64,000 nucleotides of DNA. Source: Myxococcales bacterium (lineage in GTDB: Bacteria; Myxococcota_A; Polyangia; Polyangiales; Houyiibacteriaceae). The DNA lies in NCBI GenBank assembly GCA_024640845.1, contig JAHEEE010000145.1:456-64455 (forward strand). The letters run 5' to 3'. The number at the start of each line of letters is the position of its first letter. Within the stretch, counting starts at the first letter, position 1. Both the position numbers and the translations under genes were made by a program. Below the pieces are notes generated by a model. That model saw nothing but the letters and a program-made list of their open reading frames with translations, did no database searches and had not been told where the DNA came from. This document shows positions 16,804-62,686 of the stretch, piece after piece.

Positions 16804-16820
16804 GGCTCTTCTCCTCTGCC

Positions 16821-20217: not shown

Positions 20218-20377
20218 TATTGTCGACTCGGAGCGATTTTAACTATCTGAATTTCCTTATGACTTCGCGTGTCTTAGGCTTTTTACACGTCTTCGGGGGT
20301 GCGCAGCCCAGCTACCTAAGTTAAGCCTAATGTGCTATTTTCTAAGAGTTCGAGTTTCTCTTATCTGGCGAGTGGCG

Positions 20378-21064
20378 ATGCGACTTATGTGGATCGGGGT
20401 CCTAGGCGCAGTGGTGCTGGCCGCGGCCTGCACGGGCAGCACACAGGACCACGCAAGATTGGAGGTTCGCAGCAGTGATTGCGTCGTGTGTCATGCGGAT
20501 GACGTACAGCACGCGCTCAACCCTCCGCACGAAGGCTTTCCCGACACCTGCGGCAGTTGCCACGGCAACGAGGCTTGGAGCCCGGCGGCGTTCCAGCACA
20601 ACTGGCCTCTCAACGGTGCGCACGCGATGCTCGAATGCGCCGCCTGCCATCTTGGGGACCCACCCGTCTATGCGGGAACGCCTACGTTGTGCGTCGGCTG
20701 CCACCAGGACGACTACGACAGCAGCCCCTTTCCGGGGCACGCCGAGTTTCCAACCACCTGTGAGAACTGCCACACCACGACGGCATGGAGCCCAGCCACG
20801 GGAGGCACCCATCCCGAGAATGCGTTTCCGATCCAAAGTGGGCCGCACTCACGATACCGGGACGACTGCGTCTCGTGTCACAATCCCGAGCTTGGCTCGC
20901 CCGTGGACGGTGAGAATGCTGATTGCGTCGGTTGTCATGATGGACAGCACACACGCGCACAGATGGATCCCAAACACATCGAGGTTGGTGGTTATCCGAG
21001 CGGTGCAGCCCCTCCGAACTTCTGCTTGGATTGCCACGCGGACGGCATCAACCGCGACGACTAA
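20378..21064 (+). CDS. 8-heme c-type cytochrome lipoprotein
   Basis: ATG at 20378 gives MRLMWIGVLGAVVLAAA/C, a lipobox. 8 CXXCH motifs. The C-terminal ~85 aa are homologous to the C-terminus of the 29-heme protein. Confidence 0.85.
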   Translation: MRLMWIGVLGAVVLAAACTGSTQDHARLEVRSSDCVVCHADDVQHALNPPHEGFPDTCGSCHGNEAWSPAAFQHNWPLNGAHAMLECAACHLGDPPVYAGTPTLCVGCHQDDYDSSPFPGHAEFPTTCENCHTTTAWSPATGGTHPENAFPIQSGPHSRYRDDCVSCHNPELGSPVDGENADCVGCHDGQHTRAQMDPKHIEVGGYPSGAAPPNFCLDCHADGINRDD

Positions 21065-22444: not shown

Positions 22445-23359
22445 GTGGGGACCCGCTTGCTGTGGGGTAGCGTGGGGACAGAGGCGAAGAGCGGTCGTAA
22501 GCGCCGCGCGGATCGGAGCGCCGTCTTGCTGGTGCTGCTGGGGCTTTGCGTCCTCGGCTACATGCTCTGGGATCTCGGCGAGGACTTCTACCTCTCCGAC
22601 CTTCAGTCGAGGGTCGAGCATGGCGACTACGAAGCACTCCGACCGGGAGGTCTCGTCGGACATGGATACGGCATCGTCGGGACGATCCTGATCCTCGCCA
22701 ATCTGCTCTATCTCGCGCGACGCCGCTTCGCTCGGTGGTCGCTCGGCTCGATGGCGACTTGGCTCAACCTGCACGTCTTCACGGGTCTCGTCGGCTCGCT
22801 CCTGATCCTCTTCCATTCCGCCTTTCAGTTTCGGACACCCATCGCGGTGGTTACCGCGATTAGTCTCGGCGTCGTCGTGGCCACCGGGATCGCAGGCCGG
22901 TATCTCTATGCGCTCACGCCGCGTCCTGACCGCCAGGCGCTCGAACAGGCCCTGGCGTCGTTGGACGAGCTAGCACCCGGATGCAGTGCCCGCGTGTATC
23001 ACGCACTGGCGATTCACAAGGTCACCCAGGTCGACACGCACCGCTGGTTGCTCGCCAAGCTCGCGGCGATCCCCAAGTGGGCGCGCGACGCACGCTCGCG
23101 CGGTTTCATCGTCAGCTACGTCATCGAGGATGCTCCCGTTGCGGACATCCTCCAACGCAAGGAGCGAAGACGCTTTCGGAAGGCAAAGCGGGTGGTCCGC
23201 AAGTACGCAACGCGTGAGGTAGTCGCCACCATGGCCTCGTCGCTGCTTCAGTCCTGGCGCGGGCTTCATAGGTTTCTTGCCTTGATTCTCATTCTGTTGG
23301 TCCCCGTCCACATCGCGGTGGCTTGGATCTACGGCTATCGCTGGATCTTCTCGCAATGA
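22445..23359 (+). CDS. Polytopic membrane protein with two H-x13-H helices (putative di-heme cytochrome b / quinol-interacting anchor)
   Basis: About 5 TM helices. HVFTGLVGSLLILFH and HRFLALILILLVPVH each space two His by 13 residues. GTG start. The stop overlaps the next start (ATGA at 23356-23359). Confidence 0.65.
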   Translation: MGTRLLWGSVGTEAKSGRKRRADRSAVLLVLLGLCVLGYMLWDLGEDFYLSDLQSRVEHGDYEALRPGGLVGHGYGIVGTILILANLLYLARRRFARWSLGSMATWLNLHVFTGLVGSLLILFHSAFQFRTPIAVVTAISLGVVVATGIAGRYLYALTPRPDRQALEQALASLDELAPGCSARVYHALAIHKVTQVDTHRWLLAKLAAIPKWARDARSRGFIVSYVIEDAPVADILQRKERRRFRKAKRVVRKYATREVVATMASSLLQSWRGLHRFLALILILLVPVHIAVAWIYGYRWIFSQ

Positions 23360-24996
23360 GCGGACGCGCCACCGCCTCGATCATCATCGGCGTCGCGATG
23401 CTCGCCGCGGTGGCTGCCGGGGCCTTCGTCCCGAGGAGAACGGGCGCCCAGTTTTTATCGCCAGGGAAGCTCAGCAGCGCGCATGCGGAGATCGATGGCG
23501 ACGCCAACTGTAGCGAGTGCCACTCGACCGGGAGACGACTCGATACCGACTCCTGTCTCGGATGTCACGACGATCTTCGTGCTCGCATCCGGCAAGGACA
23601 AGGGCTCCATAGTCGCCCAGACTATCAGCAGAAGGACTGTGGCGGTTGTCACGTCGAGCACCTCGGGAGAAACGCCAAGCTCGTTCGGTGGCCTGGGGGG
23701 AGCGAAGCGCGGTTCGACCACCGAATGTCCGGCTGGCCGCTCCGAGGCGCGCACGCATCGGTTCGCTGCGCGGAGTGTCACGACGTGCCCAATCGTCGAG
23801 GAAACGCGACATATTTGGGGCTGAGTCGCGATTGCGTCTCTTGTCATGAAGATCCTCACGAGGGCACGTTTGCCGGCGCAGAGTGCACATCGTGTCACAA
23901 CGAAACCGACTGGGCTCAGGTCGACAACGTCCGAGCCAACCATCCCGGTCTGAGCCTCGCCGCCGGGCACGCGAAAACCAAGTGCGAGGACTGCCACGAC
24001 CAGGGCAACGTCGCGCCCCCGAGCATGGGATCTTCCTGTGTCTCCTGTCACGCGCAGGTGCATGATGCTGCGTTTGGCGATCGCTGCGAAAACTGCCACG
24101 CCGGCATTCGTTGGTTGGGTCTTCCGCGCAAGATCGGGTTGCAGGCGCACCCGAAAACAGGGTTCCCGCTCGAGGGGCTGCATCGAGACGCTCCGTGTAA
24201 GGGCTGTCATTCGCCCAAACTCTCGCCGGAGCGTCGCTACCGGCAGCTCGAGTTCGATCAATGCAGCGACTGCCATCGCGACGCCCACCGCGGGACCCTA
24301 GGGAAAGTGGATTGTGCAACCTGTCACGACGAGCACGGGTTCTGGCCAACATTGTTTAGCATCGAGCAGCACGGCCGCACGCGATTCCCCTTGGAGGGGA
24401 AGCATCAGGCGGCGCCCTGCACGAGTTGTCATCAGGGCAAACGGCCCCGCGTCAACCTCGAGCTCGCTGCCAAGGCCTGCGTCGATTGCCATGACAATCC
24501 CCACGGAGCGCAGTTCGCCGATGAGATGCGTTCCGGTGGGTGCGCGACTTGCCATTCGGAACGGGGTTGGGAGTCGCCCCGCATCGACCACAGCACATGG
24601 CCGCTCACCGGGGCCCATTCCGAGGCCGCGTGTGACAGCTGTCACACCCCTTCCAAGCAGGATCGACTGAGCGGTCGCGGAGCGACGTATGCGGGGGCGC
24701 CGCGCGAGTGTTCGGGTTGCCATCGCGACGTTCACGCGGGGCAGTTCCGGCTCACTTCGCCGGAACGAGAATGCGACGCCTGTCACATCACCCAGGCGTT
24801 CGAGATCGATGCCTTCGACCATGCGGAGCTCGCGTCGTACCCGCTCGAAGGCGAGCACGCCGACCTCGAGTGCGTTGCCTGTCACAAGAAGGAGCGTCTG
24901 CGGAGCGGCGCGCGCCCGGTGCGATATCGGCTTGGATACAGCGAGTGCGCCGATTGTCACGCGAACCCGCACGCCCGGAGAAAGGGAGCACGATGA
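23356..24996 (+). CDS. 20-heme c-type cytochrome (periplasmic or membrane-tethered)
   Basis: 546 aa from the ATG at 23356, with an N-terminal hydrophobic segment and 20 CXXCH motifs. F.H.....PL.G.H....C..CH repeats of the c7/c3 style. Confidence 0.9.
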   Translation: MSGRATASIIIGVAMLAAVAAGAFVPRRTGAQFLSPGKLSSAHAEIDGDANCSECHSTGRRLDTDSCLGCHDDLRARIRQGQGLHSRPDYQQKDCGGCHVEHLGRNAKLVRWPGGSEARFDHRMSGWPLRGAHASVRCAECHDVPNRRGNATYLGLSRDCVSCHEDPHEGTFAGAECTSCHNETDWAQVDNVRANHPGLSLAAGHAKTKCEDCHDQGNVAPPSMGSSCVSCHAQVHDAAFGDRCENCHAGIRWLGLPRKIGLQAHPKTGFPLEGLHRDAPCKGCHSPKLSPERRYRQLEFDQCSDCHRDAHRGTLGKVDCATCHDEHGFWPTLFSIEQHGRTRFPLEGKHQAAPCTSCHQGKRPRVNLELAAKACVDCHDNPHGAQFADEMRSGGCATCHSERGWESPRIDHSTWPLTGAHSEAACDSCHTPSKQDRLSGRGATYAGAPRECSGCHRDVHAGQFRLTSPERECDACHITQAFEIDAFDHAELASYPLEGEHADLECVACHKKERLRSGARPVRYRLGYSECADCHANPHARRKGAR

Positions 24997-41644: not shown

Positions 41645-42223
41645 ATGGCTGATATTCCGACAGACGATCGGGCGAGGGAGGGGCTGTTTGGCTTTCTCTC
41701 GCGCCGGCGGTTTTTGAAAGCGAGCCTCGTTGCCGGAGGTGCGATCCTCGGTGTGGGCGGCGGTGGATTGCTCGCGCTGAGGGGCCGTGCGCCATCGGTC
41801 GATGGCCTCCGAGTCCTCGACGATCATGAGTACCAAACGCTCGAGAGTCTGGTTCAGGTCATGCTTCCGGCGACTGACGAGATCCCCATCGATGCGGCAT
41901 CGATGGATCTTCCTCGCGCATTCGACGCGTTTCTCACTGGCGAGCCCGAGCACAACGTGAGGGATCTTCGCAAGGCGCTGGTGCTGGTCGAGTTCGGCCC
42001 TCTCGTGTTCGACAAGAAGATCACCACCTTCTCGCGCCTTCCGGTCGATGAGCGCACCGAGCATTGGAATAGCTGGGGAACGAGCGATCGCTTGCTTCAG
42101 CGGCAAGTCAGCATCGCGATGCGGAAGTTCTTCAATCTGGTGTACTTCGATCACGAGAGAGTGTGGCCCTATATCGGCTACCCCGGTCCGTCCCTGAAGC
42201 GCCAGCGAGGAGTTACCCCATGA
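41645..42223 (+). CDS. Tat-signal small subunit of a GMC-type dehydrogenase (gluconate 2-dehydrogenase subunit-3-like)
   Basis: Twin-arginine motif SRRRFLKASL. Translationally coupled to the GMC oxidoreductase gene (ATGA at 42220-42223). Confidence 0.7.
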   Translation: MADIPTDDRAREGLFGFLSRRRFLKASLVAGGAILGVGGGGLLALRGRAPSVDGLRVLDDHEYQTLESLVQVMLPATDEIPIDAASMDLPRAFDAFLTGEPEHNVRDLRKALVLVEFGPLVFDKKITTFSRLPVDERTEHWNSWGTSDRLLQRQVSIAMRKFFNLVYFDHERVWPYIGYPGPSLKRQRGVTP

Positions 42224-43749
42224 CAGGGGCGATTGTAGACCTGTCGCGCGAGTCGCTTCCCGAGTCCTTTGCGACGGAGATCTTGATCATCGGCTCCGGC
42301 TCGAGCGGGGCGACGGCCGCGCGCCTCCTCGGCGAAGCAGGCCACGAGGTGGTCGTCCTCGAAGAAGGGCGCGATCTGATCGGCGCCGAGCGGACGCAAC
42401 GCGATGCGGCCATGTACGACCAGCTTTACATGGACCGCGGCGGGCGCGCTTCGCACGATCTGTCCATCAGCGTCCTCCAAGGGAGAGTGCTCGGAGGCGG
42501 AGGGGTGATCAACACCTGCGACGTGGTTCCAATCCCGGAGGGTGTGCTGAATCACTGGGCGACCAAGTATCAGCTCGAGGACTTTGCGCCGGACAAATTC
42601 GAGCCCTTCGCACGGGGCGCGCTCGAGGATCTCTCGGCAAGCCGCATTCCTGAAGACCTCATCAACGTCGCGAATGCGAAGCTTCGTCAAGGCGCTGAAG
42701 GACTTGGTCTCCGCGGCGAAGTGATGATGCACAACCGAGTCAGCTGCCGCGGTCTCGGTACCTGTCTCATCGGGTGTCCGATTCACGCGAAGCGAAATCC
42801 GCGTATGGTTGCCATCCCCAAAGCGATCGCTGCCGGTGCTCGCGTTCTGACTCGAGCGCGCGCCGTCAAGATCAGCAAGGCGAATCAGGAGGTGAAAGAA
42901 GTCGAGGTTCGTGCGCTCGATCCGCGCGGCTATCACGAGCACGGGAAATTCACGATTCGCGCCAAGATCGTCATCGTCGCGGCCAACGCCATCGGATCGG
43001 CGCAATTGCTGCTCCGTTCCGGCGTTGGGAACGGGCACGTTGGAAAGAACCTGATCCTTCAACCTCAACTTCCCATCATCGGCCTCTTCGACGAGCGCAT
43101 CGCAGCGTTCGATGGGATACCTCAGGCGTACGCGATCACGGAGTTCGAGGAAGAGGACAACCCGGAGTTCGGGCTTTGGGGCTATCGAATCGAGGCGATC
43201 ATGGGCACGCCCGGCATCGTATCCACCATGCTGCCTTTTACCGGCGCGCCCGGAATGCACGGTATGGCCCAATACGATCGAATGGCAGCGTCGCTCCTTC
43301 TCGCACCGGACCGACCCTCGGGGCAGATCGAGGTTGCGCGCGACAGAAGGCTCACGATTCGGTACGAGCAACGCCCAGACCACCAACAGCGCCTGCGGGA
43401 CGCCGCGGAAAACGCCGCCAAGGTATATCTAGAGGCAGGGGCCCGCGAAGTACTGGTCCCGACGGTCCCAGCGGTCTTCATCCGGTCGGCCAAGGAAGCA
43501 AAAAAGGCCCAAGAGATCTCGTTCGCCCCGGCAACGGCCCCGATGATCAGCGCGCATCAGCAGGGCACCGTGCGCTTTGCCGCGTCGGAGCGAGACGGCG
43601 GCGCCGATCTCGACGGCCGAGTCTACGGCACCAAAGACATCTATGTATTCGACTCGTCGGGCTATCCAACGACCGCATCCAGTCACACGATGACCCCGAT
43701 CATTTCGTCATCGAGAATGTTGACCGCGAAACTCTTGACGCGGATCTAG
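42220..43749 (+). CDS. GMC-family FAD oxidoreductase
   Basis: ILIIGSGSSGATAA dinucleotide fold. C-terminal ...HQQGTVRF... and ...DSSGYPT... GMC signatures. Confidence 0.85.
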   Translation: MTGAIVDLSRESLPESFATEILIIGSGSSGATAARLLGEAGHEVVVLEEGRDLIGAERTQRDAAMYDQLYMDRGGRASHDLSISVLQGRVLGGGGVINTCDVVPIPEGVLNHWATKYQLEDFAPDKFEPFARGALEDLSASRIPEDLINVANAKLRQGAEGLGLRGEVMMHNRVSCRGLGTCLIGCPIHAKRNPRMVAIPKAIAAGARVLTRARAVKISKANQEVKEVEVRALDPRGYHEHGKFTIRAKIVIVAANAIGSAQLLLRSGVGNGHVGKNLILQPQLPIIGLFDERIAAFDGIPQAYAITEFEEEDNPEFGLWGYRIEAIMGTPGIVSTMLPFTGAPGMHGMAQYDRMAASLLLAPDRPSGQIEVARDRRLTIRYEQRPDHQQRLRDAAENAAKVYLEAGAREVLVPTVPAVFIRSAKEAKKAQEISFAPATAPMISAHQQGTVRFAASERDGGADLDGRVYGTKDIYVFDSSGYPTTASSHTMTPIISSSRMLTAKLLTRI

Positions 43750-43754
43750 TGGGG

Positions 43755-43949
43755 TTATTCTTCTTCTACCTGTATCGATTGCGTTGGACACATCATGCAA
43801 GCATCTCGTGCCTTGTCTTCTAGGTCGGGCGGGATGTCGTATGTTTGAATCCTGAGGCTTCCGTCCTCTGCGAACGAGAAGAGCTCGGGTGCCTCCTCGC
43901 AACAAACCCCGTAGTGGTTACAGGTGGCGGAGTTGTACATGATCTTCAT
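43755..43949 (-). CDS. Small single-cluster ferredoxin
   Basis: 64 aa. C-x5-C near the N-terminus and C..CP near the C-terminus. Start overlaps the upstream stop (ATGA). Confidence 0.75.
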   Translation of the reverse strand: MKIMYNSATCNHYGVCCEEAPELFSFAEDGSLRIQTYDIPPDLEDKARDACMMCPTQSIQVEEE

Positions 43950-44377
43950 GGCTTGCTCAGTAGCTCTTGCTCTTCGTGTTCCATGTCGTCGCGGATTGCG
44001 CGGGCCAGCTCGCGAACGCCCGTGACGAGCTTCGCGCCTACCTCGGTTTCATCCAAGTCGTGAATGATGCGATCGAAAAGCTCGCGCTGCCCCTTGTGCT
44101 CTTCGAGCATCCCTCCGACAACCGCATCCCCCTTGCCATCTGTTGCCAGTGACGGGAGTTGATACTCCTCGTAGTGTAGGTGCTCGAGCAGCACCTTTCC
44201 GAGGGTTTGTAGCTCGTCACGCAGCGCCAAGACCGCTTCGGCGTCTTCCTTGCCCACGCGCTCCGTCAGGGCTTCGACACGCGCGAGCAGTGCGGAGATC
44301 TGCGCATGCTCACTTCGGATACGCGATCTGACTTCGTCCGGCGTCTCCGGCGTTTGAATGTCCGAACCGCTGTTCAT
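43946..44377 (-). CDS. Hemerythrin-like (HHE cation-binding) domain protein
   Basis: 143 aa, helical, with H/E pairs (HLHYEE, EEHKGQ, DMEHEE). Confidence 0.65.
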   Translation of the reverse strand: MNSGSDIQTPETPDEVRSRIRSEHAQISALLARVEALTERVGKEDAEAVLALRDELQTLGKVLLEHLHYEEYQLPSLATDGKGDAVVGGMLEEHKGQRELFDRIIHDLDETEVGAKLVTGVRELARAIRDDMEHEEQELLSKP

Positions 44378-45421
44378 CTATGCTGCGGCAAGCCGCCGAC
44401 GTCGCTCGGCCAGTGTGAGCGGCTTGCTCACCTCCTTGACCCCATCATACTCGTCTTGCGCCTGCTTGTGGTACCAGTCCGGATAGAAGTGGGTGCACCA
44501 CTTGCGGAAATCGGCAATCGGGCCGTCGCCGTCACAAAGCATGGGCTGGTTGAAGAAGGCCTTGTTCTCCCAGACGGGCGCGTCCTCCTCGAGCTGCCGC
44601 GCGATCTCCCTCGTGAAGGCCCTGCCAACACCCTCCGTGATTTCCGCGCCGCCGATCTTCTTCACGGAAAACGAGAAGCGAACGTCGCAGTATTCATCGT
44701 CGATCGGCGTGACCGAGGCCATGTTGGTCGTCTCGACGATGCCTCGGAAACGGCTTACCGAGAAGCCAAAGCCGTGTACCTCGACGTCTAGCTCGCCGGT
44801 CACGTCGCCGCGCGGCGTGTTGTAGAGCGCGTCGGTGATCATCTTGATGTGCGGGTATTCGAGCTTGATCGTGTGCGGTTGCGGGACGATCTCCATGCCG
44901 TGAACGTACCGGAAGTGCGCCTTGTCGACGACGTTCTCGCACATGTCCTGGTTGTGCGTGCGTAGCTTCCAGCGCTGCTTCCAGTATGGCGTCCAAGCCT
45001 CGTTGTTCCATTCGGGGATCTCGGGAATGTCCCATTCGGGCTCTTTGCCTTCGATGTCGTGCCAAACCATGATGATGCCGTTGCGCTCGATCACTGGCCA
45101 TGCCGTGACACTGGCTTTGCGTGGGAGGTGTTTGGCATATGGCACTTTCGTGCACTTGCCCGTTCCATCGAACTTCCATGCGTGGAACGGACATACGATG
45201 CCGTCTCCCTCGACCTTGCCGCCGTGCCCGAGGTGAGCGCCCATATGCGGGCAGAACGCGTCGAGCACGCTGACTTCGCCGTCTTCCGTGCGGAACATGA
45301 CCATTTCGACGCCGAAGTACTTGAGTGGCACGACATCGCCGCTCTCGAGCTCGTCCGAGTACGCAACCTGGAACCATCCCCGTGGGTAGCGTGGAATCGG
45401 AAATCGCGGTCTCTTGCTCAT
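44378..45421 (-). CDS. Rieske [2Fe-2S] non-heme-iron oxygenase, KshA-like, paralog 1
   Basis: CPHMGAHLGHGG...CPFHAWKF Rieske motif. ATG at 45421 with AGGAGAA upstream. Confidence 0.85.
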   Translation of the reverse strand: MSKRPRFPIPRYPRGWFQVAYSDELESGDVVPLKYFGVEMVMFRTEDGEVSVLDAFCPHMGAHLGHGGKVEGDGIVCPFHAWKFDGTGKCTKVPYAKHLPRKASVTAWPVIERNGIIMVWHDIEGKEPEWDIPEIPEWNNEAWTPYWKQRWKLRTHNQDMCENVVDKAHFRYVHGMEIVPQPHTIKLEYPHIKMITDALYNTPRGDVTGELDVEVHGFGFSVSRFRGIVETTNMASVTPIDDEYCDVRFSFSVKKIGGAEITEGVGRAFTREIARQLEEDAPVWENKAFFNQPMLCDGDGPIADFRKWCTHFYPDWYHKQAQDEYDGVKEVSKPLTLAERRRRLAAA

Positions 45422-45434
45422 GGCTGTTCTCCTG

Positions 45435-46409
45435 TCATTCCGCCGCGTCCGCAGCCCTATTTCGCGGCGTGTAGAATTGCGAGTACCAGCGGCGGAATTC
45501 GCCAATCGGACCGTCGCCGTCGCACAGAATCGGCCGGTCTAGGTAGATCTTGTTTTCCCAGATCCGGACGTCTTGCAGATAGCCGTCCCGCATGTTGTCG
45601 ATGAAGTGGTCGATGAGATCGTCGGTCATTCCTTCGACCGCCTTCATCGAAACGCCGAAGCGAAGCATCACGTTTTCATCGTCGATGGGGGTGTGCGCGT
45701 TGATGATGATGCCGAGCCCTTTGCCGTACATCTTGGTTACCTGATACGCGGGCCCGTAGTATGTCGCGGTCGACTCGAACTCGTCCTTGCCGCCGTGCAC
45801 GGGGTAGGCGATGGCTTTGATTTTCTGTTGGCCGATGTGGTCGCTGTAGGTGTTGCTGAACGAGCCCGGTATCGGATGCGTGTTGTGCACCGGAATGAAG
45901 TGGCCCGCGTCCGCGAGGTTTTCCGCGATGGCGAGCGGCGGCGTCTTGATCTGGAGCTTCGCGTAGCGCCATGGAAGAAACTCGGGATCTTCCCACTCTT
46001 CAATCGCGGGGATCTCCCAATCAGGCTGGCTCTTCTCGCGGTCGTGCCAGACGAAGATCATTCCGTTGCGCTCCATCACCGGCCAACATGCGACGCTCGC
46101 TTTGGGAGGAATGCGTTTGGCGTAGGGGATCTCGATGCACTTGCCCGCGCCGTCAAACTTCCATGCATGGAACGGGCATACGATGCCCTCTCCTACGATC
46201 CTGCCCCCATGTCCGAGATGCGCGCCCATGTGCGGGCAGTACGCGTCCAACACTTTCGCTTCGCCTGACTCGGTACGAAAGACAACGAGCTCCTGGTCGA
46301 AGCGCTTCAACGGCACGACATCGCCGGGGTTCAGCTCTTCCGAGAACATGAGCATGAACCAGCCGCGGGCAAAACCCGCCCAAGGGTTCGTCATCCTGTC
46401 GTTGTCCAT
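45435..46409 (-). CDS. Rieske [2Fe-2S] non-heme-iron oxygenase, KshA-like, paralog 2
   Basis: CPHMGAHLGHGG...CPFHAWKF. AGGAG precedes the ATG at 46409. Confidence 0.85.
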   Translation of the reverse strand: MDNDRMTNPWAGFARGWFMLMFSEELNPGDVVPLKRFDQELVVFRTESGEAKVLDAYCPHMGAHLGHGGRIVGEGIVCPFHAWKFDGAGKCIEIPYAKRIPPKASVACWPVMERNGMIFVWHDREKSQPDWEIPAIEEWEDPEFLPWRYAKLQIKTPPLAIAENLADAGHFIPVHNTHPIPGSFSNTYSDHIGQQKIKAIAYPVHGGKDEFESTATYYGPAYQVTKMYGKGLGIIINAHTPIDDENVMLRFGVSMKAVEGMTDDLIDHFIDNMRDGYLQDVRIWENKIYLDRPILCDGDGPIGEFRRWYSQFYTPRNRAADAAE

Positions 46410-46425
46410 CGGAAGCTCCTGAAAG

Positions 46426-46454
46426 TAGAACGTGTTTCACTAGAACATGTTTCA
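46426..46454. promoter_or_regulatory. Two tandem KstR-type (TnnAACnnGTTnnA) operator-like boxes
   Basis: TAGAACGTGTTTCA (46426-46439) and TAGAACATGTTTCA (46441-46454). Both match all eight fixed positions of the motif. They lie 17-45 bp upstream of the Rieske operon start. Confidence 0.5.
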
Positions 46455-46553
46455 ATTTGGCGAGACAGGCAAGCCGGATTTCTCTCGTTCGACTCGCGAA
46501 AAAGGGTGTGTCCAGGCATTGACCCGGAAAACTTAGACACTAGTTAGACATAC

Positions 46554-47981
46554 ATGGGCGCGGCTCGAAAACAAAAGCTGGTGATTGCGGGTGCCTCGGG
46601 CTTCGTGGGCCAGGCGCTCGCGCCGGCGCTGGCGGCGCGTTTTCACGTGATTGGCTTGTCGCGCACAGCCCGTCAGCCGGGGGGCGGATTCGACGAATAC
46701 CGCGCCTGTGATCTCTTCTCGCTGAGCCAGACTGAGGAGGCGCTCGAAGGTGCCGAGTACGCGGTCTATCTCGTACACAACATGATGCCGTCCGCCCGGC
46801 TGACGCAGGGCGACTTCGAAGACCTCGACATCGTGTGTGCGGACAACTTCGCGCGTGCAGCGGCAGCCGCGGGCGTCAAACACATTGTCTACCTCAGCGG
46901 GCTTTGCCCCGATGGCACGGAGCTGTCGAAGCACCTCAGGAGCCGTTGCGAGGTCGAGCGGACTCTGGCCAGCTACGTGGTCCCTGTTACCACTCTGCGA
47001 GCCGGCCTAATTCTCGGTGGGCGAGGTTCATCGTTTCAGGTCATGGCGCGTCTGGTTCGGCGCTTGCCCCTGATGATCTGCCCCCGGTGGACGAACACGA
47101 AGACCCAGCCGATCGCGCTTCGTGACGTCGTTAGCTTGATTTCGGGCGTCGTCGGTCGCGAGGATTGCTACGACCAGGCGTTCGACATCGGAGCGCCGGA
47201 CGTTGTCACCTACAAACAGCTGATGTCGATGACGGCGACTGCCCTGGGCAAACGCCGATTGTTCATTCCCTCGCGCGTACTGTCGCCTGGGCTCTCGCGT
47301 TTGTGGATCACGTTGATCACCGGTGCTCCGAAAGCGCTGGTTGGACCGCTGGTCGAGAGCCTCCGCCACGAGATGGTGGCCAAGGAGGATGGACTCGCCG
47401 CGCGGCTTGGCGTCGCTCTCACCCCGACCGCCGAAGCGATTCACCAAGCTGTTGCCGAGTCCGACGACACAGCTCCTCATGCATTCCGAGGCGGCGCCTC
47501 GCGCACCGGCCCGTCGCTCGTGCGCTCCGTTCAAAGAATGGCACTGCCGGCCGGTTGGACGGCGAAGCGCGCTGCAACCGACTACCTCCTTTGGCTTCCG
47601 CGTATGTTGAGCGGCCTGCTTCGCGTCGACCTCGCGTCCGTCAACCGCTTCCGGTTCGTGTTCGCTCCATTCGATCTCACGCTACTCGAGCTCGAGCGAG
47701 CACCAGAGCGCAGCAGATTGGACCGTCAGCTCTTTTACGTGACTGGGGGCGCTCTGCGCGGCGCCCGCGGGAGACCGCGATTCGAGCTTCGCCAAGTGCT
47801 CGGGGGACGAACTTTGCTGACGGTCGTCCACGACTACGAGCCGCGGCTTCCTTGGCTGCTCTACGTGTCCACTCAAGCCATTTTTCACCGTTGGCTGATG
47901 GGCCGGTTCGGAGCGCATCTATCGCTCCACCGCCCTCGCAACACCCGCATCTCAAACTCAGCGAAGGCCTTGTCTTCGTAA
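46554..47981 (+). CDS. NAD(P)H-binding (NmrA/atypical SDR) protein with a large C-terminal domain (DUF2867-like)
   Basis: LVIAGASGFVGQAL Rossmann motif. 475 aa. Confidence 0.7.
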   Translation: MGAARKQKLVIAGASGFVGQALAPALAARFHVIGLSRTARQPGGGFDEYRACDLFSLSQTEEALEGAEYAVYLVHNMMPSARLTQGDFEDLDIVCADNFARAAAAAGVKHIVYLSGLCPDGTELSKHLRSRCEVERTLASYVVPVTTLRAGLILGGRGSSFQVMARLVRRLPLMICPRWTNTKTQPIALRDVVSLISGVVGREDCYDQAFDIGAPDVVTYKQLMSMTATALGKRRLFIPSRVLSPGLSRLWITLITGAPKALVGPLVESLRHEMVAKEDGLAARLGVALTPTAEAIHQAVAESDDTAPHAFRGGASRTGPSLVRSVQRMALPAGWTAKRAATDYLLWLPRMLSGLLRVDLASVNRFRFVFAPFDLTLLELERAPERSRLDRQLFYVTGGALRGARGRPRFELRQVLGGRTLLTVVHDYEPRLPWLLYVSTQAIFHRWLMGRFGAHLSLHRPRNTRISNSAKALSS

Positions 47982-48005: not shown

Positions 48006-48521
48006 ATGCGAACCGATAAACTACTACTCACTTCCTTCCTTGCTTTGGCCCTCGTCGGCTGTGCGAAGGACGTGCCCCAACCCTCGACGCCGGCCCAAGC
48101 GGTGACCCAGCCCAACATCGTGACCGTCGCCGCAGGAGCTGGTCAGTTCAACACGCTGGTTGCAGCCGTGAAGGCCGCCGATCTCGTCGATACCCTACAG
48201 AGCCCCGGCCCGTTCACGGTCTTCGCGCCTACTGACGAGGCGTTCGCGAAGCTCCCAGTCGGCACGGTCGACAGCCTCCTTCTTCCCGAGAACAAGGAAA
48301 AACTCACTGAGATTCTCAAGTACCACGTGGTCGCTGGCGAAGTTCTCGCTGCCGACGTCGTGAAGCTGACCTCCGCCGACACGGTGGAAGGTCAAGCGGT
48401 GATGATTACCGCATCCGATTCGGGCGTTCGCGTCAATGACGCCAACGTCATCCAGACCGACGTGATGGCATCTAACGGCGTCATTCACGTCATCGACACC
48501 GTTCTGATTCCCTCATCTTAA
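48006..48521 (+). CDS. Fasciclin (FAS1) domain lipoprotein
   Basis: Lipobox [17 protein letters not shown] and [14 protein letters not shown]1 motifs. Confidence 0.85.
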
Positions 48522-48566: not shown

Positions 48567-48599
48567 GAGGCTGCCCGCTCATGGTGGGCGGGCAGCCTC
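48567..48599 (+). terminator. Stem-loop terminator candidate
   Basis: Perfect 12-bp GC-rich stem GAGGCTGCCCGC / GCGGGCAGCCTC with a 9-nt loop, 46 nt after the fasciclin stop. There is no strong T-tract. Confidence 0.55.
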
Positions 48600-48737
48600 A
48601 CCTTCTCTGGCACCGGGGCGGGTACGCAGAGTAAGGAGCCGGCAAATGATGAATGTACTCACCACCACCCCATTCATCGTCAGGCGAACTGCCGGGTGTC
48701 CAACCACTGAGTGCTCGCCCTGTTGCGTCTTTTAATC

Positions 48738-49652
48738 ATGAACAGCACTGCACAAGAAACAAATGGCCTCTACCCGATGCGTGTGGTTTCACGCCTGACG
48801 GGGCTCACCGCAGACACCATTCGCGTTTGGGAGCGTCGCTACGGCGCGGTCGACCCCGAACGGACAGACGGTAACAAACGTCGCTACAATGGAAGCCATG
48901 TGCGTCGCCTGGTGTTGCTCAGGCGTGCGACCGAGCTTGGGCATTCAATCGGCCAAGTTGCCACTCTTCACGACGAGGAGCTCCGGCGCATCATTGGGGA
49001 GATCGGCCCTGACATCGACAGCCAGGTCTCGCTCTACGACGCTCTTGTCGAAGACTACCTGGGGGCGATTACCAGCTACGACGTGCAGCGCGCCGAGTCG
49101 ATACTTACTCGTACCGCAGCGATTCTGCCTCCCATGACCCTGACGCTCGAGGTCATCGTGCCGCTGATGCGACGTGTAGGCGAGGCGTGGATCGCGAAGC
49201 AGCTTCGTATCTCTCACGAACACATCATCTCGGGCCAGCTTCGAAGCTTGCTCGGCACGCTGATGCGTCACACGGACCCCCAGCCCGGTGCACCCCGGAT
49301 CATCGTTGCAACGCCCCCGAGTCACCTTCACGAGTTTGGCGCCATCATCGGCGCGTTCATGGCGGCGAGCCGGGGCTACGAGCCGATCTATCTCGGCACG
49401 CACATGCCTTTCGAGGAGATCGCTGACGCCGCTGACCAAGCCGGAGCATCGATTATCTTGTTGAGCATCGCGCGGAGCTGTGAGCCGGGTGAACATCTCG
49501 GCCTCGTGGCAGGAATCGAGCTCCTCGCGCGAGGGCACGAGGTCTGGCTCGGACTGCCGGAGGGGCACGAGCTCGGTCACAACAACCTTCCTGCCAAGCT
49601 CTTGTACCGATACGAGGATCTCGACGCCCTCATGACAAGCCAAATCGGATAG
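48738..49652 (+). CDS. MerR-family regulator with C-terminal cobalamin-binding domain (CarH/LitR-like)
   Basis: MerR HTH (RVVSRLTGLTADTIRVWERRYG). C-terminal Rossmann-like B12 module with ...PPSHLHEFGA... (xHxxG). Start could be the ATG at 48738 or the GTG at 48711. Confidence 0.8.
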   Translation: MNSTAQETNGLYPMRVVSRLTGLTADTIRVWERRYGAVDPERTDGNKRRYNGSHVRRLVLLRRATELGHSIGQVATLHDEELRRIIGEIGPDIDSQVSLYDALVEDYLGAITSYDVQRAESILTRTAAILPPMTLTLEVIVPLMRRVGEAWIAKQLRISHEHIISGQLRSLLGTLMRHTDPQPGAPRIIVATPPSHLHEFGAIIGAFMAASRGYEPIYLGTHMPFEEIADAADQAGASIILLSIARSCEPGEHLGLVAGIELLARGHEVWLGLPEGHELGHNNLPAKLLYRYEDLDALMTSQIG

Positions 49653-59955: not shown

Positions 59956-61575
59956 CTATGGGGTCAGTGCCCTTGCGGCACGAAGGCCCGAGTACACGCA
60001 GTCCGCAATCGACAGCCCGCTGACATACTGACGCGAGCAGATCCCGACGGCATTGCGCCCGGCGGCGTAGAGGCCCGGCACCACTCCGCCGTCCTCGCTG
60101 AGGACTTGGCCTGTTTTCTCATCGACGGCCAAACCGCCGAGGGTCATCACGGCACACAGGTGCCGCTTCGAGCCGAGCGAGCAGTCGATCGCGTAGTACG
60201 GTCCCTCAGGCATGGGGTGAATGCTCTCGTTTGCTTTCTCGAACGGGTCGCGGAGCTCTCCACGCGCTGAGCGGCTGTAGTCATCGAGGGTCTTCTGCAA
60301 GGTGTCGCGCGGTACGCCGAGCATCTGCGCGAGCTCATCGACGTCGTCCGCCTTCTTGCAGTTGAGGTAGAGGTTCATCAGAGCCGCAGCGCGCTGAAAC
60401 CACTGCAGCTTGCCGGGCTTCGACTGGTCGTGCGCGAGCTTCTTGAGATTTTCGTCGATGATGAGGGTGGCCACTCCGTGGTTCTGTTCGACCATCGCTT
60501 CCCCGATCTTCGCTCCGTACCAGAACTCGTTCGCAAAGCGCTCGCCGTTGCCATTGATCAGCACACCTTGGGCGAACGCGTTCGGCGGATAGAGAAAGCG
60601 CCAAGCCGAGGCACGATGCATCTGGTCGACTTTGCCACCCACGCTTTGCCCCAGGCGAATTCCGAAACCGTCGTCGCCGTGGGTTCCAAGTGGCAGCCCG
60701 GGTAGGTACTCCGGAATGTGCTCGGCGACCATCTCGCGGTTGAAGACGAACCCGCCTGCAGACAGAACGAGACCGTTCCGACTGCGAATCCTCCGGCTGA
60801 CCGAGTGCTCTCGTTCGATGGCGTCACAGCCTCGGCGAAGCTTTAGCGCCAGGCGTGGAGCGACTTTGGCAATCGCCGTCTCTGAGCGGTGAAGGATCCG
60901 GTGAAGCCCGCGCCACAAGCTGGACGAAAGCTCTTGGGCCTCCACACCGACGACACGGCCCTCGAGGTCGACGACGAGCCGACTCACCCGGGTCTGGAGC
61001 TGAATTCGAACGCCCCTGGCGAGGGCCGTCTCACGCAACGGGTCCGTGATGCGCGCCCCGGGAAACGCGCCGCCATCTGGGCGGTGCCCGCGCTGCGCAG
61101 GCGTCGCTCGTTCGTTGTAGGGCGGGAACAACTCGTTGCCCGAGAAGTAGAGGTGATACTCGTTGGTCGGATAGGAGGTCTTGACCGGACAGAGGTTGGG
61201 CAGAAACGGGACTCCCCGGTCGGTCAGCCACTTTAGGTTTGCCGGGCTCCTCTCGCAGAAGTCGCGAAGGGTCTCTTCGCTCACAGCGTCTTGGACCTCC
61301 ATCGAGAGGTAGCGGTACATGTTGTCGACCGTGTCCTGGACACCGGCTGCCTCTTGGATGTGCGTTCCGCCGCCGGCGTAGTACACGCCGCCACTAATCG
61401 CAGTGGCGCCGCCTCCTTCGAACCGGTCGAGCACGAGCACGTCAGCGCCGCGCTCGCGCGACTCGATGGCCGCAGTGACGCCGGCTGCGCCGAGGCCTAC
61501 GACAACCACGTCGGCAGCGTCGTCCCAATGCGCGCCATTCACATCATCCAATACGAGGGGTGTCAGGCTGCTCAT
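59956..61575 (-). CDS. FAD-binding dehydrogenase of the fumarate-reductase / 3-ketosteroid-delta1-dehydrogenase (KstD-like) family
   Basis: VVVVGLGAAGVTAA FAD fold and C-terminal ...GLYAAG... motif. Start is the ATG at 61575 or the GTG at 61596. Confidence 0.8.
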   Translation of the reverse strand: MSSLTPLVLDDVNGAHWDDAADVVVVGLGAAGVTAAIESRERGADVLVLDRFEGGGATAISGGVYYAGGGTHIQEAAGVQDTVDNMYRYLSMEVQDAVSEETLRDFCERSPANLKWLTDRGVPFLPNLCPVKTSYPTNEYHLYFSGNELFPPYNERATPAQRGHRPDGGAFPGARITDPLRETALARGVRIQLQTRVSRLVVDLEGRVVGVEAQELSSSLWRGLHRILHRSETAIAKVAPRLALKLRRGCDAIEREHSVSRRIRSRNGLVLSAGGFVFNREMVAEHIPEYLPGLPLGTHGDDGFGIRLGQSVGGKVDQMHRASAWRFLYPPNAFAQGVLINGNGERFANEFWYGAKIGEAMVEQNHGVATLIIDENLKKLAHDQSKPGKLQWFQRAAALMNLYLNCKKADDVDELAQMLGVPRDTLQKTLDDYSRSARGELRDPFEKANESIHPMPEGPYYAIDCSLGSKRHLCAVMTLGGLAVDEKTGQVLSEDGGVVPGLYAAGRNAVGICSRQYVSGLSIADCVYSGLRAARALTP

Positions 61576-61621
61576 CTGGATTGCGCAAGCTAGCACGGTG
61601 CTTCAAGGTCCGCAGCGATTG

Positions 61622-62686
61622 ATGGAGCTTCCCGTGACCCCAGAAGGCGTCGGCCCAGTGTGCTTGGTGACCGGAGGAAACGGTTACGTCGGCAAGCACC
61701 TCGTCCGCAGGCTGCTAGAGCTCGGCTGCGAGGTGCGCGCGCTCGACCTCGCGCCGTTCGAAGGCGATTCCCGCGTCAGCAGCATCGTTGGGGACATCCG
61801 TCGCATGCGCGAAATCGGCCCGGCGTTCGAGGGTGTCGATACGGTCTTTCACACTGCCGCGATTATCAACACCTTGACACTCGCGCGGCCGAGCGTTCGT
61901 CGCAAGGTTTATGGCGTCAACGTGAGTGGTACAGAGAACGTGATTCGGGCCTGCAGAGCGGCTGGCGTAAGGCGGCTGGTCTTCACGAGCTCGATCACGG
62001 TGGCTGTCGACCGTCCGGTCCGCGGTGCGGACGAAACCGCGCCCTATGTCGGCACCGATGGGCTCCCGGATCTTTACTCGCAGACCAAGAGCCGAGCCGA
62101 GAAGCTGGTGCTCGAGGCCAACGACAGAGACGGGCTCCGCACCGCCGCAGTGCGCCCAGGAGGGGTGTGGGGCCCGGGGGAAGGCGCCATGATGGTTCAC
62201 GATTTCCTGGAGCACCTTGCGGCGGGCGACTTCAAGGCGATGATCGGAAGTGGTCAGTCCGTGACCGACAACGTGCACGTGGACTCGGTCGTCGACGTGC
62301 ACTTTCTCGTCGCTCAGAAGCTGACCGATGACCCCGACTTGGTTGGAGGCCAAGCGTATTTCGTGAGTGACGACGAGCCGACAAATCCGGTGCTCTGGTA
62401 CAAACCCATCGTCGAAGGCCTCGGCTATTCCTGGCCCAAGGTGCACATCCCACGACCTTTGGCGTACGCGATCGCGTACCTCGGGGAGGTCGCTCACTAC
62501 TTCGGTGGGCCTTTTCCTACCGTCACGCGGCGAGGCGTCCTCTCGATCTGCTGCGACGCCTCCTTCCGTGTCGACAAGGCCAGAGCCCACCTCGGCTACG
62601 AGCCGCGCACGAGCGCTGCCGAAGGGATTCCCAAACTGATGCACGAGTTCAAGGCAACCCACGATCGACTGAAGGCCGAACGATGA
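61622..62686 (+). CDS. 3-beta-hydroxysteroid dehydrogenase/isomerase-family NAD-dependent enzyme
   Basis: ATG at 61622. LVTGGNGYVGKHL and YSQTK (YxxxK) motifs. Confidence 0.85.
   Translation: MELPVTPEGVGPVCLVTGGNGYVGKHLVRRLLELGCEVRALDLAPFEGDSRVSSIVGDIRRMREIGPAFEGVDTVFHTAAIINTLTLARPSVRRKVYGVNVSGTENVIRACRAAGVRRLVFTSSITVAVDRPVRGADETAPYVGTDGLPDLYSQTKSRAEKLVLEANDRDGLRTAAVRPGGVWGPGEGAMMVHDFLEHLAAGDFKAMIGSGQSVTDNVHVDSVVDVHFLVAQKLTDDPDLVGGQAYFVSDDEPTNPVLWYKPIVEGLGYSWPKVHIPRPLAYAIAYLGEVAHYFGGPFPTVTRRGVLSICCDASFRVDKARAHLGYEPRTSAAEGIPKLMHEFKATHDRLKAER

What the first reader, a model, noticed from the sequence alone, without database searches (positions are those of the whole stretch)
46426..46454. Two tandem KstR-type operator boxes in front of a KshA-like Rieske/ferredoxin operon of a Gram-negative genome
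TAGAACGTGTTTCA and TAGAACATGTTTCA lie head-to-tail. Each satisfies every fixed position of TnnAACnnGTTnnA, the operator pattern reported for the TetR-type cholesterol-catabolism repressor KstR of Mycobacterium and Rhodococcus.

They sit 17-45 bp upstream of the first of two KshA-like Rieske oxygenase genes. Those are followed by hemerythrin and ferredoxin genes (46409 to 43755). The boxes also sit in the divergent promoter region of the 46554 gene.

No TetR gene is present in the window. Finding the actinobacterial-style operator here suggests a conserved or horizontally shared steroid regulon.
Basis: partly seen in the sequence, partly recalled or inferred. Interest (0 to 1): 0.7.

Follow-up and report, generated by a model that had tools for sequence, protein, structure and literature searches.

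The report
KstR-type steroid operator pair, Myxococcota
Two adjacent 14-bp palindromes in front of a pair of steroid-hydroxylase-like genes are a conserved binding site of the KstR type, the repressor known from the cholesterol-degradation genes of mycobacteria; here it sits in a myxobacterial genome, which points to a steroid-breakdown gene set in a phylum not known for one.

Summary
TAGAACGTGTTTCA (46426-46439) and TAGAACATGTTTCA (46441-46454) are the only matches to TnnAACnnGTTnnA in the window. They lie 16 nt upstream of the start codon of an operon on the minus strand: two KshA-like Rieske genes, a hemerythrin gene and a ferredoxin gene.

The window comes from an uncultured Myxococcota (Polyangiales-like) lineage. 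In 34 of 38 close relatives the same box pair, with the same 15-bp spacing, sits in front of the orthologous gene. The flanking DNA has diverged.

In 2.33 Mb of related Myxococcota loci the motif occurs 384 times, against none in simulations. Most sites lie upstream of homologues of steroid-catabolism genes: KshA, HsaA, P450, FadD, acyl-CoA dehydrogenases, Ltp-type thiolases and DUF35.

The motif also lies upstream of a TetR gene. That gene's best solved-structure and NCBIfam matches are M. tuberculosis KstR.

The window holds no TetR gene. However, 22 genomes of its own clade encode this KstR-like protein at the end of a box-headed operon.

DNA binding, the ligand and the steroid substrate remain inferred. 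I file it as a new member of a known kind: a KstR regulon outside Actinobacteria, in a phylum that earlier surveys of steroid degraders did not list.

The parts
46426..46439 (.). Proximal KstR-type box TAGAACGTGTTTCA. On the gene strand it reads TGAAACACGTTCTA. It lies 16 nt upstream of the kshA-like start codon.
   Evidence: PWM score 29.1 bits. The same box is present in front of the orthologous gene in relatives.
46441..46454 (.). Distal KstR-type box TAGAACATGTTTCA. On the gene strand it reads TGAAACATGTTCTA. Its centre lies 15 bp from the centre of the proximal box.
   Evidence: PWM score 29.7 bits. Most of its positions are invariant in an alignment of 24 orthologous intergenic regions whose mean column identity is 45%.
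45435..46409 (-). kshA-like gene 1 (324 aa): a Rieske [2Fe-2S] monooxygenase oxygenase subunit. It is the first gene of the regulated operon.
   Evidence: Pfam KshA_C 1.2e-51 and Rieske 1.1e-22. Best PDB match is 3-ketosteroid 9alpha-hydroxylase 4qdc, E 5.3e-65 over residues 12-314. The CPH...CPFH and D..H....H iron-ligand motifs are visible in the translation.
44378..45421 (-). kshA-like gene 2 (347 aa). It starts at ATG 45421, 13 nt after the stop codon of gene 1, and is preceded by AGGAG.
   Evidence: Pfam KshA_C 2.6e-39. Best PDB match 4qdc, E 5e-55. Start codon read. The orthologue in L003 aligns from 45421.
43946..44377 (-). Hemerythrin-domain gene (143 aa). It abuts kshA-like gene 2.
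   Evidence: Pfam Hemerythrin 2.3e-11. It follows the Rieske gene in 36 related loci (cluster c1).
43755..43949 (-). Small single-cluster ferredoxin gene (64 aa), the last gene of the operon. It overlaps the hemerythrin gene by 4 nt.
   Evidence: Pfam Fer4_13 1.4e-10 and Fer4_15 2.7e-09. It is conserved after the hemerythrin gene in 32 related loci (cluster c2).

Best explanation
The two boxes are a tandem operator for a KstR-family TetR repressor that is encoded elsewhere in the genome.

Proposed mechanism:
- One repressor dimer binds each 14-bp palindrome. The centres are 15 bp apart, so the two dimers sit on roughly opposite faces of the helix.
- The pair ends 16 nt before the start codon of the first kshA-like gene. 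Bound repressor would therefore cover the promoter or transcription start and keep the operon (kshA-like 1, kshA-like 2, hemerythrin, ferredoxin) off.
- By analogy with M. tuberculosis KstR, a CoA thioester of a partly degraded sterol or steroid side chain would release the repressor.

In this lineage the operon is one of at least three units carrying the same box. The second is an operon of SCP2, DUF35, two Ltp-type thiolases, a FadD-like gene, a third kshA-like gene and kstR-like. The third is a divergent pair: an amidohydrolase gene facing HsaA-like, hydratase and acetaldehyde dehydrogenase genes. Together they look like a 9,10-seco-type steroid-catabolism regulon.

Shown here: the motif, its conservation, its enrichment, its co-occurrence with the KstR-like gene and that gene's own box, and the homologies.
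Inferred: binding, repression, the ligand and the substrate.
For: Motif identity:
- The boxes fit the published KstR operator (PMC1995591). Half-sites TAGAAC and TGAAAC both occur in mycobacterial sites listed there.
- The flank preference (A two bases before T1, 78% of 345 sites) matches the mycobacterial 'AnT(A/G)GAAC' sites.

Phylogenetic footprint:
- 34 of 38 close orthologous promoters carry two boxes at 15-bp spacing; 4 carry one.
- The boxes are the only strongly conserved block of the intergenic alignment.

Enrichment:
- 384 strict matches (332 distinct contexts) occur in 2.33 Mb of related loci. Five Markov simulations gave 0.
- 72% of the matches lie outside called coding sequence, which covers 83% of the bases.
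- Downstream genes are homologues of KshA, P450, FadD, enoyl-CoA hydratase, acyl-CoA dehydrogenases, a flavin reductase and YrbE.

Regulator:
- The TetR genes next to Rieske genes in L056, L067, L073 and L078 have M. tuberculosis KstR as best PDB match: E 8e-21 over the full length. Apart from one further unnamed TetR-family chain (3bjb, 2.4e-15, full length), other TetR structures match at about 1e-8 and mostly through the HTH region.
- 57 of 80 KstR-like genes have a box within about 250 bp upstream.
- 22 assemblies of the window's own clade encode the protein, including the closest relative JBLYYU01.
- L204:3153-3731 has Pfam TetR_N and TetR_C_20. Its best PDB match is KstR, 2e-22. Its best NCBIfam match is NF033703 KstR at 6e-35; the next is FadR at 2e-11.
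- In that clade a box heads the operon ending in kstR-like in 5 of 5 loci with enough upstream DNA. Another box sits at about -91 of the amidohydrolase gene in all 10 loci where the upstream DNA is held (at -74 in one; cut at the locus end in another).

Pathway context:
- The HsaA-like protein from relatives' operons matches PDB 2rfq at 4e-93; the clade's HsaA-like protein next to the amidohydrolase gene scores 398 bits on NCBIfam HsaA. An HsaC/BphC-type dioxygenase is also present.
- DUF35 carries the OB_ChsH2_C domain, and an SCP2 protein and Ltp-type thiolases are present.
- The window itself encodes a Delta4-(5alpha)-ketosteroid-dehydrogenase-like protein (4at0, 2e-70) and a 3beta-HSD-family protein.
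Against: - No binding or expression data exist for any of these organisms; nearly all are metagenome-assembled genomes.
- The window's own genome beyond 64 kb was not available, so the presence of kstR-like in this very genome is inferred from relatives (92% or lower protein identity at the Rieske gene).
- The KstR-like protein scores below NCBI's equivalog cut-off (120.5 against 280 bits), so it is a distant family member. Its ligand may differ.
- In the window's clade no strict box lies directly upstream of kstR-like. Autoregulation would have to act through the operon promoter about 6 kb upstream.
- No sigma-70-type promoter was recognised by the simple scan, so the geometry of repression is not established.
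- The window's operon lacks the hsaA-like and hsaC-like genes that many relatives carry between the two kshA-like genes. No KshB-type reductase was seen.
Confidence: 0.8

Rival explanations
1. The operator and the KstR-like repressor are real, but the regulon does not degrade steroids taken up from outside. It could act on another polycyclic or isoprenoid lipid, or remodel the sterols that some Myxococcota make themselves. The KshA-like enzymes would then have a different substrate.
For: - The KstR-like protein is below the NCBIfam equivalog cut-off, and so is the HsaA-like protein (398 against 450 bits).
- There are three kshA-like paralogues per genome, with unusual partners (hemerythrin and a small ferredoxin) instead of KshB.
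- KstR-like genes also occur in Nannocystis and Plesiocystis (L193, L207, L211, L223). From my own knowledge, these genera make sterols.
- The extradiol dioxygenase is closer to BphC than to HsaC.
Against: The combination is the signature of the 9,10-seco steroid pathway, not of other known pathways. It comprises KshA-, HsaA-, HsaC-, HsaE- and HsaG-like genes, FadD-like genes, Ltp-type thiolases, DUF35 with a ChsH2 OB fold, SCP2, P450, KstD-like genes and YrbE/Mce-type permease genes, all behind one motif.
Confidence: 0.15
2. The boxes are bound by a different regulator, for instance the CarH-like MerR/B12 protein encoded 2.3 kb away (48711-49652) or an unrelated TetR. The resemblance to the KstR operator would be coincidental.
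For: A CarH-like gene is conserved near the operon in 21 related loci (cluster c8). The window has no TetR gene.
Against: - CarH binds tandem 11-bp direct repeats, nAnnTnnACAn (PMC8156234, PMC9304148). It does not bind 14-bp palindromes at 15-bp spacing.
- Repeats of the CarH kind lie separately at 46530-46551.
- The boxes also occur in many loci that have a KstR-like gene and no CarH-like gene, including directly upstream of the KstR-like gene itself.
- Relatives whose divergent gene is a sulfatase keep the boxes without the neighbouring CarH-like gene cluster.
Confidence: 0.04
3. The two boxes are a chance duplication of an AT-rich stretch and have no regulatory role.
For: Within the window alone, 4 of 100 shuffles also give two matches to the loose pattern.
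Against: The boxes are conserved in position, sequence and spacing in dozens of species whose flanking DNA has diverged. There are 384 sites in related loci against 0 in simulations.
Confidence: 0.01

Closest known systems
KstR (Rv3574 / MSMEG_6042) regulon of Mycobacterium and Rhodococcus
   Same: - The same 14-bp palindrome, TAGAAC-N2-GTTCTA, with the same tolerated variants (TGAAAC and TGGAAC half-sites) and the same flanking A/T preference.
- A TetR-family repressor with full-length similarity.
- A box in front of the regulator's own transcription unit.
- Target genes that are homologues of kshA, hsaA, hsaC, fadD, fadE, ltp, cyp and the yrbE/mce permease genes.
   Different: - The host is Myxococcota, not Actinobacteria.
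- The repressor falls below NCBI's equivalog threshold (about 120 against 280 bits).
- In the window's clade kstR-like is the last catabolic gene of a roughly 6-kb operon, not a divergently transcribed gene with its own box.
- The kshA-like genes are paired with hemerythrin and a small ferredoxin, not with kshB.
The two KstR motifs between Rv3570c (hsaA) and Rv3571 (kshB) of M. tuberculosis (PMC1995591)
   Same: Two copies of the motif lie in one intergenic region, next to genes for opening steroid rings A and B.
   Different: In the window the two copies are directly adjacent (1 bp apart, centres 15 bp apart), and this spacing is fixed across the clade. I did not retrieve the spacing of the mycobacterial copies.
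TetR-family operators that take two dimers on closely spaced or overlapping sites (QacR type; from my own knowledge)
   Same: Two palindromic sites lie too close for side-by-side binding on one face of the DNA. This implies dimers on different faces.
   Different: In the window there are two complete, separate palindromes rather than one long overlapping site. The stoichiometry is not known.
KstR2 (Rv3557c) regulon for steroid rings C and D
   Same: It is also a TetR repressor of steroid-catabolism genes released by a CoA-thioester catabolite.
   Different: From my own knowledge its motif is different (AnCAAGnnCTTGnT). The boxes in the window do not fit it, and KstR2 was not among the significant PDB matches of the Myxococcota protein.

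Membership tests
KstR operator (DNA site) | 14-bp palindrome with core TnnAACnnGTTnnA and consensus TAGAAC(N2)GTTCTA | tested here: met
   Both boxes fit every fixed position. The consensus is quoted from PMC1995591.
KstR operator (DNA site) | Lies in the promoter region of lipid or steroid-catabolism genes and is conserved among related species | tested here: met
   The boxes lie 16 nt upstream of the kshA-like start codon. They are conserved in 38 of 38 close orthologous promoters, 34 of them with both boxes. The motif is enriched upstream of homologues of steroid genes.
KstR operator (DNA site) | Bound by KstR protein in vitro, or genes de-repressed in a kstR mutant | not testable with these tools
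   This needs EMSA or footprinting and genetics.
KstR repressor (protein, encoded outside the window) | TetR_N helix-turn-helix plus a KstR-type ligand domain, with full-length similarity to Rv3574 | tested here: met
   Pfam TetR_N and TetR_C_20. The best PDB hits are all KstR entries, E 2e-22 over residues 3-191 and 8e-21 for the more distant group.
KstR repressor (protein, encoded outside the window) | Passes the curated NCBIfam equivalog model NF033703 | tested here: not met
   It scores 120.5 bits against a cut-off of 280. It is still by far the best family: the next is FadR at 44 bits. The protein is therefore a distant member of the family, not an equivalog by NCBI's criterion.
KstR repressor (protein, encoded outside the window) | Autoregulation: the motif lies in front of its own transcription unit | tested here: met
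   57 of 80 genes have a box within about 250 bp upstream. In the window's clade the box heads the operon that ends in kstR-like in 5 of 5 informative loci.
KstR repressor (protein, encoded outside the window) | Present in the same genome as the boxes | tested here: inconclusive
   It is absent from the 64-kb window. It is present in 22 assemblies of the same clade, including the closest relative. The window's own genome could not be retrieved.
KstR repressor (protein, encoded outside the window) | Released by 3-oxo-steroid CoA thioesters | not testable with these tools
   The ligand is known for M. tuberculosis KstR (my own knowledge, solved complexes 5cxg and 5cxi).
KshA (3-ketosteroid 9alpha-hydroxylase oxygenase) | Rieske CxH...CxxH cluster motif, mononuclear-iron ligands and the KshA_C catalytic domain over the full length | tested here: met
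   Pfam Rieske and KshA_C. Full-length best PDB hits are KshA entries 4qdc and 2zyl. The motifs are visible.
KshA (3-ketosteroid 9alpha-hydroxylase oxygenase) | Works with a KshB-type reductase and hydroxylates 3-ketosteroids at C9 | not tested
   No KshB-like gene was seen in the window or the related loci, but I did not search for one specifically. A ferredoxin and a hemerythrin are encoded instead. The activity needs an assay.

The most novel reading that the evidence does not exclude
Myxococcota carry a complete, KstR-controlled 9,10-seco sterol-degradation system. This would include uncultured Polyangiales-like lineages from soil and sediment, and cultured sterol-producing genera such as Nannocystis. 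Aerobic steroid catabolism and its actinobacterial regulator would then extend to a phylum that genome and metagenome surveys did not list. The ring-opening KshA enzymes would use a non-canonical redox set (small ferredoxin plus hemerythrin) in place of KshB.
Probability: 0.45. Interest if true: 0.7.

Novelty: new member of a known kind. Interest (0 to 1): 0.6.

Why it matters
The 9,10-seco steroid pathway has been described as restricted to Actinobacteria and to Alpha-, Beta- and Gammaproteobacteria (PMC5790920; PMC4810484). KstR has been treated as an actinobacterial regulator. In this study the same operator, down to its flanking bases, and a KstR homologue organise homologues of steroid-catabolism genes in many Myxococcota genomes.

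If this is functional, three things follow:
- It adds a widespread soil and sediment phylum to the organisms that turn over sterols.
- It gives a ready-made motif for predicting the regulon in metagenome-assembled genomes.
- It shows a TetR-operator pair that stayed unchanged across phyla.

It can be tested directly in cultured Nannocystis strains, which carry the gene and the boxes.

Tried and rejected
- Exact-protein look-up of the window's Rieske protein, to find its source contig: not on record.
- First search for KstR-like genes by protein alignment: it returned only the 80 best loci, none from the window's clade. I solved this with a degenerate DNA pattern for the recognition helix VALGTxYKRF.
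- Simple sigma-70 promoter and terminator scan of 46300-46650: nothing found. The promoter is therefore not placed.
- Search of the window for HsaA, HsaC, P450, acyl-CoA dehydrogenase, thiolase, FadD, flavin reductase, YrbE and KstR homologues by tblastn: only the two Rieske genes and a distant FAD-protein hit.
- Alternative identities for the boxes, considered from memory and rejected on geometry:
  - LexA/Cheo box (GAAC-N4-GTTC; the window has N2).
  - Alphaproteobacterial LexA (GAAC-N7-GAAC; the window has N11).
  - LacI-type palindromes (central CG).
  - PsrA (GAAAC-N4-GTTTC).
  - CarH repeats (11-bp direct repeats).
- SdmA-type sterol demethylase for the Rieske proteins: only the N-terminal Rieske part matches, at 72-80 bits against a cut-off of 600.
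- Literature searches linking KstR, KshA or steroid catabolism with Myxococcota, myxobacteria or Deltaproteobacteria found nothing relevant. The library lacks many subscription journals, so prior description cannot be excluded.

Full report
**The observation**

The window reads ...CTGAAAG TAGAACGTGTTTCA C TAGAACATGTTTCA ATTTGG... The two 14-mers lie at 46426-46439 and 46441-46454. They form a direct repeat with a 15-bp period and 13 of 14 identical bases. They are the only two matches to TNNAACNNGTTNNA in 64 kb. The expected number is 0.29, and 4 of 100 shuffles give two matches, so the window statistic alone is only suggestive. A weight matrix built later from 345 related sites scores them at 29.1 and 29.7 bits. 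The next best position in the window scores 2.3 bits.

**The genes around the boxes**

Four tightly packed genes lie downstream on the minus strand:
- 45435-46409: Rieske + KshA_C.
- 44378-45421: Rieske + KshA_C. The real start is the ATG at 45421, behind an AGGAG and 13 nt after the previous stop codon.
- 43946-44377: hemerythrin.
- 43755-43949: a 64-aa single-cluster ferredoxin.

The proximal box ends 16 nt before the first start codon, with GGAG in between. Both Rieske proteins match solved KshA structures over their whole length: 4qdc at E 5e-65 and 5e-55. The next family (SxtT and others) scores only about 1e-20 to 1e-22. A GMC oxidoreductase gene (42163-43749) converges on the operon.

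On the other side lie three genes on the plus strand:
- 46554-47981: a 475-aa protein with an NAD-binding domain.
- 48006-48521: a fasciclin-domain protein.
- 48711-49652: a MerR/B12-binding regulator of the CarH type.

The window has no TetR gene. A KstR-like HMM run against all six-frame ORFs found nothing, and Pfam scans of all plausible small genes found no TetR_N domain.

**Where the window comes from, and the footprint**

A scan of one genome per species found 251 relatives of the first Rieske protein. The 78 loci kept are almost all labelled Myxococcota (Polyangiales, Polyangiaceae, Sandaracinaceae, Kofleriaceae, Bradymonadia), and all are metagenome-assembled genomes. The closest shares 92% protein identity.

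Upstream of the orthologous gene, 34 of 38 close relatives carry two boxes with exactly the same 15-bp spacing. The other four carry one.

In an alignment of 24 of these intergenic regions the mean column identity is 45%. The distal box and most of the proximal box are invariant or nearly so. This is a clear phylogenetic footprint.

More distant homologues (42-52% identity) also have the motif upstream. It appears as TAGAACGTGTTCTA, TGAAACATGTTTCA or mixed half-sites.

**A regulon, not a single site**

I called and clustered the genes of the related loci. I then mapped every match to T[AG][AG]AACNNGTT[CT][CT]A. Over all 274 loci fetched (2.33 Mb) there are 384 matches in 332 distinct contexts. 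Five first-order Markov simulations of the pooled sequence gave none. 72% of the matches lie outside called coding sequence, which covers 83% of the bases.

The genes behind the sites are homologues of:
- KshA;
- a cytochrome P450;
- FadD-type acyl-CoA synthetases;
- enoyl-CoA hydratase;
- acyl-CoA dehydrogenases;
- an HsaB-like flavin reductase next to YrbE/MlaE-type permease genes;
- a TetR gene.

In many close relatives the operon reads kshA-like, hsaA-like, hsaC-like, kshA-like, hemerythrin, ferredoxin. The HsaA-like protein matches the RHA1 3-HSA hydroxylase 2rfq at 4e-93. The dioxygenase matches BphC and HsaC structures. The window's version lacks these two genes, and they are nowhere else in the window.

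**The regulator**

The TetR genes adjacent to Rieske genes in four loci have M. tuberculosis KstR as their best solved-structure match (E 8e-21, residues 4-184). Apart from one further unnamed TetR-family chain (3bjb, 2.4e-15, full length), other TetR proteins match at about 1e-8 and mostly through the helix-turn-helix region. An alignment of the four found 198 relatives in the genome collection. Of the 80 kept, 57 have a box within about 250 bp upstream of the gene.

None of those 80 came from the window's own clade. I therefore scanned for DNA encoding the recognition helix VALGTxYKRF. This recovered KstR-like genes in 22 assemblies of the clade, including JBLYYU01, which holds the closest relative of the window.

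The clade's protein (L204:3153-3731) gave these results:
- Pfam: TetR_N and TetR_C_20.
- PDB: best match KstR, E 2e-22 over residues 3-191.
- NCBIfam: best match NF033703 'cholesterol catabolism transcriptional regulator KstR', 6e-35, 120.5 bits. That is below the equivalog cut-off of 280. The next family is FadR at 2e-11.

In this clade the gene is the last catabolic gene of a conserved cluster:
- [box] SCP2, DUF35 (OB_ChsH2_C), two Ltp-type thiolases, a FadD-like synthetase, a third kshA-like gene, kstR-like;
- then rlmL, a housekeeping gene;
- then an amidohydrolase gene on the opposite strand, [box], and an HsaA-like gene (398 bits on the NCBIfam HsaA model), a 2-oxopent-4-enoate hydratase gene and an acetaldehyde dehydrogenase gene.

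A box lies 177-418 nt upstream of the DUF35 gene in all five loci that extend far enough. Another lies upstream of the amidohydrolase gene in all ten loci where that DNA is held: at -91 or -92 in eight, at -74 in one, and cut at the locus end in one.

The lineage of the window therefore has at least three box-controlled units. One of them includes the regulator itself.

**Comparison with the known system**

Kendall et al. (PMC1995591) defined the KstR site as the palindrome TAGAAC(N2)GTTCTA with core TnnAACnnGTTnnA. They showed dimer binding to 29-bp probes, autoregulation, and two copies between Rv3570c (hsaA) and Rv3571 (kshB). Their table includes TGGAAC and TGAAAC half-sites and an A two bases before the first T. 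The Myxococcota matrix shows the same features: position -1 is A in 78% of sites.

In the window the terminal A of one box and the initial T of the other supply these flank positions to each other. The 18-bp extended sites therefore overlap by 3 bp, with centres 15 bp apart (about 1.4 helical turns). Two dimers would have to sit on different faces of the DNA. That is inference.

**Most likely mechanism**

Two dimers of the KstR-like repressor occupy the pair and block initiation, or early elongation, of the operon kshA-like 1, kshA-like 2, hemerythrin, ferredoxin. A CoA thioester formed early in sterol or steroid side-chain degradation releases the repressor, as in M. tuberculosis (the ligand is from my own knowledge).

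Shown here: site, conservation, enrichment, regulator homology, co-occurrence, and a box before the regulator's own unit.
Inferred: binding, direction of regulation, ligand and substrate.

I put 0.8 on 'operator of a KstR-family repressor'. I put somewhat less, about 0.6-0.65, on the substrate being a steroid taken up from outside. The alternative is another polycyclic lipid or the organism's own sterols.

**Rivals**

- Chance is excluded by the comparative data.
- The neighbouring CarH-like regulator is an unlikely binder. CarH recognises tandem 11-bp direct repeats, nAnnTnnACAn (PMC8156234, PMC9304148), and such repeats lie separately next to the 46554 gene. The boxes also occur widely without a CarH-like neighbour.

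**Novelty**

Surveys of genomes (PMC4810484) and metagenomes (PMC5790920) place the 9,10-seco pathway in Actinobacteria and in Alpha-, Beta- and Gammaproteobacteria. They do not mention Myxococcota or Deltaproteobacteria. My searches found no paper linking KstR or steroid catabolism to this phylum, within the limits of the library.

The kind of system is known, so I file this as a new member of a known kind. It has unusual features: a fixed tandem operator, three kshA-like paralogues, hemerythrin and ferredoxin partners, and kstR-like at the end of a catabolic operon.

It can be tested in culture. Nannocystis exedens DSM 71, Nannocystis sp. RBIL2, N. pusilla and Plesiocystis pacifica SIR-1 encode the KstR-like protein. 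The first two also show a box pair 1.5 kb upstream of the gene.

Noticed in passing
window 46508-46551 (and the gene at 48711-49652): Directly upstream of the divergent gene at 46554 lie two tandem 11-bp repeats, AACTTAGACAC and TAGTTAGACAT (46530-46551). They fit the CarH operator repeat nAnnTnnACAn. An inverted partner at about 46508 gives TGTCTAGG-N15-CCTAGACA in relatives. A CarH-like MerR/B12 regulator with the Wx9EH motif is encoded at 48711-49652. The intergenic region therefore seems to hold two independent operators, and the operon of the 46554 gene and the fasciclin gene may be light-regulated.
   Followed up: partly
L005, L014, L015, L029, L031, L034, L035, L037, L038 (alignment A2, columns about 120-140): In a subset of relatives a sigma-54-like element, TGGCAC-N5-TTGA, abuts the distal box. 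The window has TGTCTC at that place and lacks it. The -12 part deviates from the TTGC consensus, so this may be coincidence.
   Followed up: no
window 59956-61596 (-) and 61403-62686 (+): This is a divergent gene pair about 13.5 kb from the boxes. One gene encodes a FAD protein whose best solved relative is the 3-ketosteroid Delta4-(5alpha)-dehydrogenase 4at0 (E 2e-70). The other encodes a 3beta-hydroxysteroid dehydrogenase/isomerase-family protein (Pfam 3e-51). No KstR-type box lies between them.
   Followed up: partly
L001-L042 compared with window 44378-46554: The operon and its neighbour vary within the clade. Many relatives have hsaA-like and hsaC-like genes inserted between the two kshA-like genes. 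In about ten relatives the divergent gene is an arylsulfatase-like gene instead of the NAD-binding/fasciclin/CarH-like set. The box pair is kept in all variants.
   Followed up: partly
L193, L211, L223, L207; L147, L153, L210, L174: KstR-like genes also occur in cultured Nannocystis exedens DSM 71, Nannocystis sp. RBIL2, N. pusilla and Plesiocystis pacifica SIR-1. They also occur in genomes labelled Binatia, Dadabacteria and Rhodobacterales. In L210 and L174 the gene lies next to a kshA-like gene with boxes.
   Followed up: partly
window 48569-48598: A GC-rich hairpin (GGCTGCCCGC...GCGGGCAGCC) follows the fasciclin gene. It looks like a terminator separating that gene from the CarH-like gene.
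   Followed up: no
window 42163-43749 (+): A GMC-family FAD oxidoreductase converges on the operon. It shows only a weak resemblance to cholesterol oxidase (NCBIfam 53.7 bits against a cut-off of 850). A small TAT-signal protein gene (41645-42223) precedes it, and both are conserved next to the operon in relatives (clusters c4, c10).
   Followed up: no
window 8875-17085 (-), 20330-21064 (+), 23323-24996 (+): A 2736-aa ORF and two multihaem cytochrome c genes lie in the left half of the window. They have no apparent link to the finding. The large ORF was not analysed.
   Followed up: no
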